In this document: one piece after another, positions 6,991 to 9,078 of the stretch
How positions within the stretch are numbered: position 1 is the first letter of the stretch
Layout of the letters: the number at the start of each line of letters is the position of its first letter
Source: the human T2T-CHM13v2.0 reference genome, Homo sapiens
DNA: 64,000 bases
Strand: one strand, 5' to 3'
Assembly: GCF_009914755.1 (NCBI RefSeq)
Contig: NC_060939.1
Notes under the pieces: generated by a model
Seen by the model: the letters and a program-made list of their open reading frames with translations, nothing else
The model's database searches: none
What the model was told of the DNA's origin: nothing
Position numbers and translations under genes: made by a program

Positions 6991-8458
6991 ACAAACAAAG
7001 CTACCACAAACATTTGTGTTCAGATTTTCAGTGAACAATTTTAACTTCACTATGGTAAATACCTAGGAGTGAGAGTGCTGGGCCTCGGGTAATTCTGTGT
7101 TTAATTGTATTTTTAAAACTGCCAGCCAAGCACGGTGGCTCACGCCTGTAATCCCAGCACTTTGGGAGGCTGAGGTGGGTGGATCATTTGAGGTCAGCAG
7201 TTCGAGACCAGCCTGGCCAACATGGTAAAACCCCATCTCTACTTAAAAATACCAAAATTAGGTGGGTGTGGTGGCAGGCACCTATAGTCCCAGCTACACC
7301 TTAGGCTGAGACAGGAGAATCGCTTGAACCCGGGAGGTGCAATTGAATTCAACTCAATTGCAGTGAGTTGAGATTGTGCCATTGTGCTCCAGCCTGGGTG
7401 ACAGAGCGAGACTTCATGTCAAAAAAAAAAAAAAAAAAAAAAAAAGACACTCTTAAGAGAATGAAAAGACAACTCATACAGAGAGAGAAAATATTTCTCC
7501 TTCTCTGTCTTCTCTGTCTTGCAGATATGCAAATCACATAACTGACATTTGACTTGTGTCCAGAATACATAAAGAACTCCCAAAACTTGACAATAAGAAA
7601 ACAAACAGCCCAGTAAAATAATGGGCAAAAGACTTGAGTAGACATTTAACCAAAGAAGAGGCATGGCTGAAAAACAGACACATGAAAAGTTGTTTAACAA
7701 CATTAGTCATTAGAGAAATGCAAATTAAAACCACAAAAAATACTACTACACAACTGTTAGAATAAAATAAACAAATAAAGCAACCCACAAACATTTGTGT
7801 TCAGATTTTCAGGTGAACAATTTTAACTTCACTATGGTAAATACCTAGAAGTGAGAGTGCTAGGCCTCAGGTAATTCTATGTTTAACTGTATTTTTTTTT
7901 TTTTTGAGACGGAGTCTCGCTCTGTTGCCCAGGCTGGTGGGCAGTGGCACTCTGTCGCCCAGGCTGGTGGGCAGTGGCGCGATCTCGGCTCACTGCAAGC
8001 TCCGCCTCCCAGGTTCACACCATTCTCCTACCTCAGCCTCCCGAGTAGCTGGCACTACAGGCTCCCGCCACCACGCCTGGCTAATTCTTTTTGTATTTTT
8101 AGTAGAGACGGGGTTTCACCATGTTAGCCAGGATGGTCTCGATCTCCTGACCTCGTGATCCACCTGCCTCAGCCTCCCAAAGTGCTGGGATTACCGGCGT
8201 GAGCCACTGCGCCCAGCCATTTAACTTTATTTTTAAAACTGCCGGCCAGGCACAGTGGCTCATGCCTGTAATCCCAGCACTTTGGGAGGCCGAGGTTGGT
8301 GGATCATTTGAGGTCAGCAGTTCAAGACTAGTCTGGCCAAGATGGTAAAAACCCACCTCTACTAAAAATACAAAAATTAGCTGGGTGTGGTGGCAAGTGC
8401 CTGTAGTCCCAGCTACTTGGGAGGCTGAGACAGGAGAATCACTTGAACCGGGAGGTGG
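6991..8458 (+). repeat. Direct duplication: copy 1 6991-7337, copy 2 7771-8458 (copy 2 split by AluY 7891-8217)
   Basis: L1M-derived acaaa.aaagc..ccacaaacatttgtgttcagattttc...aaaactgcc plus an Alu with shared private variants (ggatcatttgaggtcagcagttc, atggtaaaa, gctgagacaggag); about 9 differences in about 125 non-Alu bp. Confidence 0.93.
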
Positions 8459-9078
8459 AGGTTGCAGTGAGCTGAGATCACGCCACTGTATTCCAGCCTG
8501 GGTGACAGAGCAAGACTGTTTCAAAAAGAAAAAAGAAAAAACAAAACAAAAAACTGCCCAACTGTTTTCTAGAGTGTCTGTATCACTATCCATTGCTATT
8601 ATCAATGTATGAGAGAAACCAGTAGCTCCCTATTTTCACAAGTGCTTGGAATTGTCAGATTGTTTATTTTAGTTATTCTGACAGTTGTGTAGTAGTATTT
8701 TTTGTGGTTTTAATTTGCATTTCTCTAATGACTAATGTTGTTAAACAACTTTTCATGTGTCTGTTTTTCAGCCATGCCTCTTCTTTGGTTAAATGTCTAC
8801 TCAAGTCTTTTGCCCATTATTTTACTGGGCTGTTTGTTTTCTTATTGTCAAGTTTTGGGAGTTCTTTATATATTCTGGACACAAGTCAAATGTCAGTTAT
8901 GTGATTTGCATATCTGCAAGACAGAGAAGACAGAGAAGGAGAAATATTTTCTCTCTCTGTATGAGTTGTCTTTTCATTCTCTTAAGAGTGTCTTTTTTTT
9001 TTTTTTTTTTTTTTTTTTGAGATGAAGTCTCGCTCTGTCACCCAAGCTGGAGCACAATGGCTCAATCTTGGCTCACTG
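7361..9078. repeat. Inverted repeat: arms 7361-7774 and 8660-9078, spacer about 0.9 kb
   Basis: 7446-7763 is the reverse complement of 8674-8992 with 2 mismatches seen; the ORF track shows near-identical peptides at 7419..7703(-) and 8735..9025(+). Confidence 0.97.
7891..8217 (-). mobile_element. AluY-type element with internal 30-bp tandem duplication
   Basis: gcaagctccgcctcc...ttcacaccattctcc and ttagccaggatggtctcgatc diagnostics; ctctgt.gcccaggctggtgggcagtggc twice at 7920-7979; TSD tttaact.tatttt. Confidence 0.9.

What the first reader, a model, noticed from the sequence alone, without database searches (positions are those of the whole stretch)
7446..8992. Inverted arms far more similar than co-created direct copies: a self-homogenising mini-palindrome or possible toggling inversion
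Seen: the roughly 320-bp arm cores differ at only 2 positions I could find (about 99%). The Alu edge of the same arms differs at about 6 of 60, and the direct copies at about 9 of 125. An AluY has also inserted into the spacer since duplication. If everything arose together, the cores must have been homogenised later. Inference: arm-to-arm gene conversion, possibly with recurrent inversion of the 0.9-kb spacer, as known for much larger palindromes. This is the best candidate here for an undescribed dynamic element.
Basis: partly seen in the sequence, partly recalled or inferred. Interest (0 to 1): 0.8.

Follow-up and report, generated by a model that had tools for sequence, protein, structure and literature searches.

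The report
Old inverted duplication with converted arms
Two mirror-image 350-base arms in an old rearranged patch of repeat DNA on human chromosome 15 look about ten times younger than the pieces copied with them, which is best read as ordinary gene conversion between nearby copies and not a new kind of element.

Summary
The arms 7421-7778 and 8660-9017 are 358 nt and 98% complementary, with 881 nt between them. The core has 2 mismatches in 329 aligned sites plus one 4-nt indel.

Segments copied in the same event are far more diverged:
- Alu edge of the arms: 7 of 63.
- Direct L1 copies: 7 of 133, plus two 1-nt indels.
- Direct Alu 5' parts: 19 of 205.

Without CpG-type sites the core is 2/329 against 22/379 for the pooled flanks (Fisher p = 8e-5). 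The three flank classes do not differ from each other.

The structure looks like one old complex duplication inside a LINE-1. It has a chimeric Alu junction between two oppositely oriented Alus and a second junction with ACAA microhomology. This is the known DUP-NML-INV/DUP pattern in miniature.

The Alu edges share a 35-nt signature with 3 exact matches in the genome, two of them here. So the inverted copy is old, and its core and poly(A) were homogenised later.

Non-allelic gene conversion is the best explanation. One event would suffice. Toggling inversion is untested, and the locus is absent from three inversion catalogues I searched. No primate or pangenome sequence was available. This is a new member of a known kind.

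The parts
6991..7123 (-). Direct copy A of an L1 fragment ('a'). It is continuous with the L1 to its left and ends at the Alu1 insertion site (AAAACTGCC, 7115-7123).
   Evidence: alignment with 7771-7896 + 8235-8243: 7 mismatches and two 1-nt indels in 133; only 2 copies in the genome at 93% or more; an independent L1 copy (L007) carries the homologues of b and a directly adjacent.
7124..7336 (+). 5' part of the chimeric Alu, paralogous to Alu1 (8244-8455).
   Evidence: 19 mismatches in 205 against Alu1, but only 78% complementarity to Alu2 over 7244-7337 (pair I10).
7337..7357 (+). Junction 1. About 20 odd nucleotides replace about 6 nt of Alu sequence where the Alu1-like part meets the Alu2-like part. 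They contain nested small palindromes (GCAATTGA...TCAATTGC, TTGAATTCAA).
   Evidence: gap in both alignments; unique in the window and matches its own reverse complement with 3 mismatches. DNA hairpin -9.4 kcal/mol, z = -2.2, with 6 of 200 shuffles folding as well.
7358..7420 (+). 3' edge of the chimeric Alu. It is the inverted copy of the 3' edge of Alu2 (9081-9019).
   Evidence: 7 of 63 mismatches; its 35-nt signature has 3 exact matches in the whole genome, 2 of them these two edges.
7421..7445 (+). Pure A25 tail, the mirror of T26 at 8993-9018. It lies inside the homogenised tract.
   Evidence: By contrast, the tail of Alu1 is broken up by G and C.
7446..7774 (+). Left arm core: the inverted copy of L1 segment b2, here in L1 sense orientation. 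It carries one private derived substitution (7568) and a 4-nt deletion.
   Evidence: 2/329. (polarity from other L1 copies); 7622-7762 translates to a remnant of LINE-1 ORF2 protein residues 1072-1110, E = 7.5e-10.
7771..7775 (+). Junction 2. The end of the inverted arm meets the start of direct copy B, with a shared ACAA microhomology.
   Evidence: Read from the alignments. The homology to 8660-8671 ends at 7774 and the homology to 6991 onward starts at 7771. Placement is uncertain by a few nucleotides.
7776..7896 (-). Direct copy B of L1 fragment 'a' (a'), continued at 8235-8243 after the later Alu insertion.
   Evidence: (D10, 94%).
7897..8219 (-). Later Alu insertion in the spacer. It has 15-nt target-site duplications (7882-7896, 8220-8234), 16 CpG retained and an internal 30-nt tandem duplication.
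   Evidence: (D5/D6).
8244..8549 (+). Alu1, the original plus-strand Alu in the L1, with target-site duplications AAAACTGCC at 8235-8243 and 8550-8558.
8559..8659 (-). L1 segment b1. It is single copy, the 'normal' stretch between the two duplicated segments.
   Evidence: no counterpart on the left side.
8660..8992 (-). Right arm core: L1 segment b2 in its original place and orientation. It carries one private derived substitution (8680).
8993..9285 (-). Alu2, the original minus-strand Alu. It comprises the T26 tail (8993-9018), the 3' edge copied into the left arm (9019-9081) and the rest, which was not copied.
   Evidence: (I5: 88 nt, 92%).

Best explanation
The locus is an old LINE-1 fragment on the minus strand that had taken up two oppositely oriented Alus 437 nt apart.

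Step 1, one complex duplication (structure shown, mechanism inferred). The structure fits two template switches during replication:
- The first switch went from Alu1 into the oppositely oriented Alu2. It left a chimeric Alu with a small palindromic insertion.
- The second switch went from the L1 back upstream at an ACAA microhomology.

The result is a 345-nt direct duplication (L1 piece 'a' plus the Alu1 5' part), with an inverted copy of about 420 nt (Alu2 edge, tail, L1 piece b2) lying between the two direct copies. This is a miniature DUP-NML-INV/DUP. By non-CpG divergence of about 6%, the event is roughly as old as the split between apes and Old World monkeys (rough clock, inferred).

Step 2, a further Alu inserted in the spacer (shown).

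Step 3, homogenisation (timing and mechanism inferred). Much later, at about one tenth of the age, the roughly 354-nt stretch from the poly(A) to the inner end of the arm was copied from one arm onto the other. The likely route is non-allelic gene conversion: a break in one arm repaired from the other arm on the same chromatid or the sister, without crossover. Since then each arm has gained one substitution, the left arm lost 4 nt, and the tails came to differ by one A.

The Alu edges had probably already diverged too far, being CpG-rich, for the heteroduplex to run through them. That would explain why the tract stops within 3 nt of the tail (inferred).

One event is enough. A locally raised, repeated conversion rate is possible but not required.
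For: 1. The arm core is far less diverged than co-copied segments. Non-CpG counts are 2/329 for the core against 5/59 (Alu edge, p = 0.0011), 6/130 (direct L1 copies, p = 0.0078) and 11/190 (direct Alu parts, p = 0.00047). Pooled flanks are 22/379 (p = 8.3e-5), and the flank classes are homogeneous (p = 0.32, 0.8).
2. The Alu edges are true paralogues copied together with the arms. They are contiguous with them through an A25/T26 tail. Their shared 35-nt signature has 3 exact matches in 3.1 Gb, two of them these edges.
3. The same trinucleotide reads TTG in one edge and CCA in the other, where the young Alu in the window has CCG. That means independent decay on both copies after duplication.
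4. Differences between the direct copies are derived on both copies. The derived state lies in copy A at 6996 and in copy B at 7782, 7849 and 7862. So they reflect accumulated time, not one-sided copying errors.
5. The arm is not a young family. Other L1 copies are 73-80% identical to it, and other copies are 71-77% identical to 'a' over long matches. So b2 is not a generally slow-evolving part of the L1.
6. The ancestral order is supported. An independent L1 (L007) has the homologues of b and a adjacent, and Alu1 has 9-nt target-site duplications.
7. The rearrangement type is described in patients. Oppositely oriented Alus or LINEs mediate DUP-NML-INV/DUP, with a chimeric element at one junction and microhomology at the other (PMC6902434, passages).
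8. The rates are compatible with published figures: 2.5e-7 per site per generation, mean tract 250 bp, slowing with divergence until 'escape' (bioRxiv 10.1101/135152, passages). With these numbers, a site is converted within the about 254,000 generations implied by 0.6% divergence with probability 0.12. A tract reaches 354 nt with probability 0.24.
Against: - There is no phylogenetic test. Without other primates I cannot show that the arms cluster by species, nor date the event directly.
- The comparison that is free of Alu sequence (direct L1 copies) rests on 6 non-CpG mismatches in 130 sites, with p = 0.008 on its own.
- Non-CpG divergence of the Alu parts could be somewhat inflated by conversion from other Alus.
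- At the published average rate, the equilibrium divergence would be about 4.8%, not 0.6%. So either this pair was lucky (a few per cent per pair) or its local rate is about 8 times higher (about 2e-6).
- The direct copies, of similar length, show no sign of conversion, and I can only offer an inferred reason: direct repeats that interact tend to delete, and copy B was split by the later Alu.
- The microhomology at junction 2 depends on how a few nucleotides are aligned.
Confidence: 0.7

Rival explanations
1. Ongoing concerted evolution with a flip-flop spacer. The arms recombine again and again. Non-crossover events keep them alike, and crossover events invert the 0.9-1.2-kb spacer, so both orientations exist among humans or among primates.
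For: - The arms (329-358 nt, 99.4% in the core) lie within the range of inverted repeats that do mediate polymorphic human inversions. Rows in Table S1 of PMC13629690 are marked polymorphic with arms of 140, 256, 285/249, 297, 418 and 654 nt and inverted segments of 618-1674 bp.
- An equilibrium divergence of 0.6% would need a rate of only about 2e-6 per site per generation.
- The tail is pure and nearly equal in length in both arms.
Against: - One event explains the data.
- CHM13 shows the spacer in the orientation in which it was created: a', Alu1, b1 and b2 are collinear with the L1.
- No entry near hg38 chr15 65.78-65.84 Mb appears among the 612 candidate regions, which merge 1528 calls from five long-read, Strand-seq and optical-map studies.
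- There is no hit for the T2T or hg38 coordinates in the supplements of PMC10150506, and only unrelated numbers in PMC12350169 (one file unreadable, one cut).
- My hg38 position is an estimate from a recalled gene coordinate, and small inversions are easily missed, so this absence is weak evidence.
Confidence: 0.15
2. Two separate events. An old direct duplication came first. A recent, independent inverted insertion of b2 followed, so the arms are simply young.
For: The arm core divergence of 0.6% (95% interval 0.07-2.2%) is what a duplication a few million years old would show.
Against: - The inverted Alu2 edge and its tail are already part of the old layer (7 of 63 mismatches; rare shared signature).
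- The arm core follows that tail in exactly the same register in both arms.
- A second insertion would have to land precisely at the end of that tail and end precisely at the start of copy B. In effect that is replacement of an older copy, which is gene conversion.
Confidence: 0.06
3. Both arms are held constant by selection, for instance as a long double-stranded RNA hairpin in the intron of the non-coding RNA gene LOC105370866, so they did not diverge.
For: As RNA the two arms would pair over 352 of 354 left-arm positions (duplex energy -591 kcal/mol). They lie within the span of a plus-strand lncRNA gene (annotation supplied with the finding).
Against: - Constraint on every one of 329 sites of a decayed L1 ORF2 remnant (stop codons in all frames) is implausible.
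- There is no match to any of the 4227 Rfam families at gathering score.
- One of the two mismatches, 7568, breaks a pair (C opposite A).
- Constraint would not explain a pure A25/T26 tail of nearly equal length.
- Conservation across species was not testable here.
Confidence: 0.04
4. Assembly or polishing artefact: the two arms were made alike by consensus collapse.
For: None found.
Against: - The whole structure is 1.6 kb, far shorter than the reads used for such assemblies (general knowledge, not tested).
- The arms still differ by 2 substitutions, a 4-nt indel and one A in the tail, which collapse would have erased.
- The flanks are unique sequence in the genome.
Confidence: 0.02

Closest known systems
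Non-allelic (interlocus) gene conversion between small duplicates, as measured genome-wide in humans (bioRxiv 10.1101/135152, passages read)
   Same: A tract of a few hundred nucleotides in one paralogue is overwritten by the other. Neighbouring co-duplicated sequence keeps its older divergence. Diverged parts 'escape' further conversion. The tract here (about 354 nt) is close to the published mean of 250 bp.
   Different: The published estimates come from duplicated genes and their introns. This pair is a non-genic, inverted, 1.6-kb structure made of L1 and Alu pieces. The species comparison that defines a conversion tract in that work could not be made here.
DUP-NML-INV/DUP complex rearrangements formed by template switching between oppositely oriented Alus or LINEs (PMC6902434, passages read)
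   Same: Two non-adjacent segments are duplicated, with a single-copy stretch between their sources. One of them is inserted inverted. One junction lies in oppositely oriented repeats and gives a chimeric element. The other junction has microhomology.
   Different: The patient events span kilobases to megabases and are recent. This one spans about 0.8 kb of added DNA, is present in the reference-quality assembly and is old by its divergence. Single-event origin is inferred, not observed. Two polymorphic 'non-tandem double duplications' of similar layout are reported in PMC5829575 (passages).
Small polymorphic human inversions mediated by short inverted repeats (PMC13629690: abstract, sections 4 and 13, Table S1 part 1 of 43)
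   Same: Arm length, arm identity and spacer length fall within the catalogued range: arms from 140 nt, inverted segments from 197 bp.
   Different: Both orientations have been seen for those loci. For this locus only one haplotype was available, and it is not in the catalogue.
Large sex-chromosome palindromes kept alike by arm-to-arm gene conversion
   Same: Inverted arms are more alike than their age predicts, and the proposed cause is arm-to-arm conversion.
   Different: Those arms are kilobases to megabases long, carry genes and are above 99.9% identical. These arms are about 350 nt, carry no gene, and one conversion event is enough to explain them.
L1 twin-priming inversions, said to account for about 85% of human inversions under 2 kb (abstract of bioRxiv 10.1101/2021.12.20.472354 in the listing)
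   Same: L1 sequence appears in both orientations within under 2 kb.
   Different: Twin priming joins different parts of one L1 copy. Here the same L1 segment is present twice, together with part of an Alu that had inserted into that L1, so genomic DNA was copied and not an L1 transcript.

Membership tests
Non-allelic gene conversion tract between paralogues | The two copies descend from one duplication | tested here: met
   Only two copies at 98% or more in the genome. They are contiguous with Alu edges that share a signature with 3 exact genome matches.
Non-allelic gene conversion tract between paralogues | A bounded tract is significantly less diverged than co-duplicated flanking sequence | tested here: met
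   2/329 against 22/379 non-CpG, p = 8.3e-5. The flanks are homogeneous among themselves.
Non-allelic gene conversion tract between paralogues | In a species tree the paralogues cluster by species inside the tract and by position outside it | not testable with these tools
   No primate genome or pangenome haplotype can be reached. The genome search holds only this assembly for this window.
DUP-NML-INV/DUP template-switch rearrangement | Two duplicated segments are separated in the source by a single-copy stretch, one of them inserted inverted | tested here: met
   Duplicated direct: 6991-7336 with 7771-8455. Single copy: 8456-8659. Duplicated inverted: 8660-9081 with 7358-7774.
DUP-NML-INV/DUP template-switch rearrangement | One junction lies in oppositely oriented repeats and gives a chimeric element; the other has microhomology | tested here: met
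   The Alu at 7124-7445 matches Alu1 in its 5' part (19 of 205 mismatches) and reversed Alu2 in its 3' part (7 of 63). ACAA is shared at 7771-7775. Placement is uncertain by a few nucleotides.
DUP-NML-INV/DUP template-switch rearrangement | All junctions arose in one event | tested here: inconclusive
   Equal non-CpG divergence of the three flank classes fits one event. A direct test needs species that predate or lack the event.
Inverted-repeat-mediated recurrent (toggling) inversion | Highly similar inverted repeats flank the segment | tested here: met
   358 nt, 98%.
Inverted-repeat-mediated recurrent (toggling) inversion | Both orientations are observed in a population or among close species, on unrelated haplotypes | not testable with these tools
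   Only one haplotype is at hand. The locus is absent from three catalogues searched by coordinate, which is weak evidence against a common polymorphism.
Large ampliconic palindromes | Arms of many kilobases carrying genes, above 99.9% identity (criteria recalled) | tested here: not met
   The arms are 358 nt. Their only protein match is a decayed L1 ORF2 remnant, interrupted by stop codons. There is no Rfam match.
L1 twin-priming inversion | The inverted and direct parts are different, adjoining parts of one L1 insertion (criterion recalled) | tested here: not met
   The same L1 segment occurs twice, and the copy includes 63 nt and the tail of an Alu that had inserted in the L1.

The most novel reading that the evidence does not exclude
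The arms are in continuing concerted evolution in several primate lineages. The same exchanges now and then flip the 0.9-1.2-kb spacer, so this old template-switch scar behaves as a small self-maintaining invertible segment. Its near-perfect 350-bp hairpin would also be kept intact in the lncRNA intron.
Probability: 0.12. Interest if true: 0.5.

Novelty: new member of a known kind. Interest (0 to 1): 0.3.

Why it matters
The locus is a clean, small, fully resolved example of two known processes acting in sequence. First came an Alu-mediated template-switch rearrangement of the kind seen in patients, here fixed and old. Then came non-allelic gene conversion with a sharp tract boundary.

The co-copied flanks give an internal clock, so the conversion can be inferred from one haplotype alone. 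That makes it a useful teaching case and a possible test locus for conversion rates between short, closely spaced inverted repeats. It does not reveal a new kind of element, and no function is indicated.

If both spacer orientations were found in people, it would add one more entry to the list of small inverted-repeat inversions.

Tried and rejected
- Chance or a young repeat family: rejected. There are two copies at 98% or more in 3.1 Gb and the others are 80% or less. It is the only pair above 85% among the 25 longest inverted pairs of the window.
- CpG decay as the whole cause of the contrast: rejected. The contrast holds after removing CpG-type sites.
- Copying errors made at the time of duplication: rejected as the main cause. 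The derived states lie on both copies (Alu edge read against the young Alu). The arm, which lies in the middle of the supposedly new tract, is the least changed.
- Twin priming: rejected, because the copy includes Alu sequence.
- A templated origin elsewhere in the window for the 20-nt junction insert: none found. It matches only itself.
- Known RNA family: none at gathering score.
- Pfam on the longest open stretch of the arm: only a chance-level match, E = 0.63. The LINE-1 identity came instead from solved ORF2 protein chains.
- My first divergence script used an arm register off by one and gave nonsense. It was corrected.
- Coordinate searches in inversion catalogues gave no entry. Searches failed only because the table writes chromosomes without 'chr'.
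Full report
**What is there**

The window is chr15:63,612,001-63,676,000 of the T2T assembly. Between about 6900 and 9500 lies one old interspersed repeat on the minus strand.
- Its plus-strand copy at 7622-7762 translates to a remnant of LINE-1 ORF2 protein residues 1072-1110 (E = 7.5e-10).
- The genome search found 3584 first-look candidates, of which the 41 listed matches other than the two arms are 73-80% identical.

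Reading the sequence and the alignments gives the ancestral order:
- L1 piece 'a' (6991-7123).
- A plus-strand Alu ('Alu1') with 9-nt target-site duplications AAAACTGCC.
- L1 pieces b1 (8559-8659) and b2 (8660-8992).
- A minus-strand Alu ('Alu2', 8993-9285) whose T tail abuts b2.
- More L1.

An independent L1 copy (L007) carries the homologues of b and a next to each other, as this order requires.

**The present structure**

From left to right:
- 'a' (6991-7123).
- A chimeric Alu. Its 5' part (7124-7336) matches Alu1 (19 of 205 mismatches). Its 3' part (7358-7420) matches reversed Alu2 (7 of 63).
- An A25 tail (7421-7445).
- b2 inverted (7446-7774).
- A second copy of 'a' (7776-7896, continued at 8235-8243).
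- The intact Alu1, then b1, b2 and Alu2.

A further Alu (7897-8219, minus strand) sits in the second copy of 'a'. It has 15-nt target-site duplications and is absent from the first copy, so it came later.

Relative to the ancestor, two non-adjacent segments were duplicated and placed side by side, one of them inverted. A single-copy stretch (8456-8659) is left between the sources.
- Junction 1 lies inside two oppositely oriented Alus. It carries about 20 odd nucleotides with nested small palindromes.
- Junction 2 shares ACAA between the two partners.

This is the layout called DUP-NML-INV/DUP. In patients it is mediated by oppositely oriented Alus or LINEs, with a chimeric element at one junction and microhomology at the other (PMC6902434, passages). 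A similar 'non-tandem double duplication' is listed among human polymorphic rearrangements (PMC5829575, passages).

**Check of the observation**

| Segment | Mismatches | Non-CpG mismatches |
|---|---|---|
| Arm core | 2 of 329 (plus a 4-nt indel) | 2 of 329 |
| Alu edge of the arms | 7 of 63 | 5 of 59 |
| Direct L1 copies | 7 of 133 (plus two 1-nt indels) | 6 of 130 |
| Direct Alu 5' parts | 19 of 205 | 11 of 190 |

These counts come; the tails are A25 and T26.

- Core against pooled flanks (22 of 379 non-CpG): Fisher p = 8.3e-5.
- The flank classes do not differ from each other (p = 0.32 and 0.8).
- Jukes-Cantor distances are 0.61% (95% interval 0.07-2.2%) for the core and 6.0% (3.7-9.4%) for the flanks.
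- At the flank rate, 2 or fewer mismatches in 329 sites has probability 6e-7.

My first script used a wrong register and is void.

**Why the arms cannot simply be young**

The Alu edges are part of the inverted copy. They join the arm cores through the tail in the same register.

They share derived changes that are very rare among Alus. The 35-nt signature has 3 exact matches in the whole assembly, two of them these edges (the tool warns that repeat counts are lower bounds).

Yet the edges differ at 7 of 63 sites. One trinucleotide reads TTG in one edge and CCA in the other, where the young Alu in the window has CCG. That means independent decay on both copies.

The differences between the direct copies are likewise derived on both copies. 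So the inverted copy belongs to the old layer, and the low divergence of its core is secondary.

Polarity for the core shows one private derived substitution in each arm. The TAAC indel is a deletion in the left arm.

**Mechanism and numbers**

The best explanation is non-allelic gene conversion over about 354 nt, from within 3 nt of the tail to the inner end of the arm.

Published human figures are 2.5e-7 conversions per site per generation and a mean tract of 250 bp, with a slowdown as copies diverge until they escape (bioRxiv 10.1101/135152, passages). With these figures and 1.2e-8 mutations per site per generation:
- The 0.6% divergence corresponds to about 254,000 generations.
- The chance that a site was converted in that time is 0.12.
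- The chance that a tract reaches 354 nt is 0.24.

So a single event is an ordinary outcome for some fraction of such pairs.

The same figures give an equilibrium divergence of 4.8%. Steady-state homogenisation at 0.6% would therefore need a rate about eight times the average. The data cannot tell one event from many.

With recalled per-year rates of 0.5-1e-9, the flanks date to roughly 30-60 million years and the core to 3-6 million years, with wide intervals. The order 'two Alus, then rearrangement, then a third Alu' fits this.

**Toggling inversion**

The arms are long and similar enough in principle. A 2026 catalogue lists 612 candidate inverted-repeat inversions, with arms from 140 nt and inverted segments from 197 bp (PMC13629690; abstract, sections 4 and 13).

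In the first of 43 parts of its Table S1, several loci with arms of 140-654 nt and segments of 618-1674 bp are marked polymorphic. So a flip here would be one more member of a known class.

I found no entry for this place:
- No hit for 65809/65810/65811 or the neighbouring gene names in all three supplementary files.
- No chr15 row for the number prefixes 6578-6583 in the tables.
- No hit for the T2T or hg38 prefixes in the three supplementary files of PMC10150506.
- Only unrelated numbers in PMC12350169, where one file could not be read and one was cut.

The hg38 position (about 65.81 Mb) is my estimate from a recalled gene coordinate, and small inversions are easily missed. This is weak evidence against a common polymorphism and says nothing about other primates. 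CHM13 has the spacer in its original orientation.

**Other readings**

- A recent second insertion would have to land exactly between the old tail and the start of copy B, which amounts to conversion.
- Selection on a hairpin RNA is conceivable. The arms would pair over 352 of 354 positions (-591 kcal/mol), and they lie in the span of a lncRNA gene according to the annotation supplied. But it would require constraint on every site of a decayed L1 remnant, there is no Rfam match, and it would not explain the matching tails.
- Assembly collapse is unlikely, because the arms still differ in four ways.

**What could not be done**

**Verdict**

- Homogenisation of the arms after an old single rearrangement is well supported from internal evidence.
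- Recurrent conversion and spacer flipping are open.
- The element is a new example of known processes, not a new kind.

Noticed in passing
window 7337-7361: The junction inside the chimeric Alu carries about 20 nt that replace about 6 nt of Alu sequence. They are built of nested palindromes (GCAATTGA / TCAATTGC around ATTCAAC; TTGAATTCAA). TCAACTCA is the reverse complement of TGAGTTGA, which lies 3 nt downstream. This looks like a small snap-back copy made during the template switch. The RefSeq 'silencer' 7260-7423 covers it.
   Followed up: partly
window 8156-8306: The later minus-strand Alu and the plus-strand Alu1 lie head to head with only 25 nt between them (63-nt arms, 87% complementary, pair I17). 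From memory, such closely spaced inverted Alu pairs are reported to be unstable and rare in the human genome.
   Followed up: no
window 7916-7977: The spacer Alu has an internal 30-nt tandem duplication (units 7916-7945 and 7946-7975) with 2 CpG-type differences between the units (families D5/D6).
   Followed up: no
window 7421-7445 and 8993-9018: The tail of an old, decayed Alu is a pure run of 25-26 A/T in both arms, whereas the tail of neighbouring Alu1 is broken by G and C. Long pure tails are usually a mark of young Alus (recalled), so the tract may have expanded or been kept pure by the conversion.
   Followed up: no
window 7421-7774 with 8660-9017: In a plus-strand transcript of LOC105370866, the arms would form a nearly perfect duplex of about 350 bp (352 of 354 positions paired, -591 kcal/mol). 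That is much better paired than the usual inverted Alu pairs of the window (78-85%). It could be a substrate for RNA editing if the intron is transcribed.
   Followed up: partly
window 61331-61975: A tandem array with a 31-nt period. Its central copies are 99-100% identical and identity falls off towards both ends (family D9).
   Followed up: no
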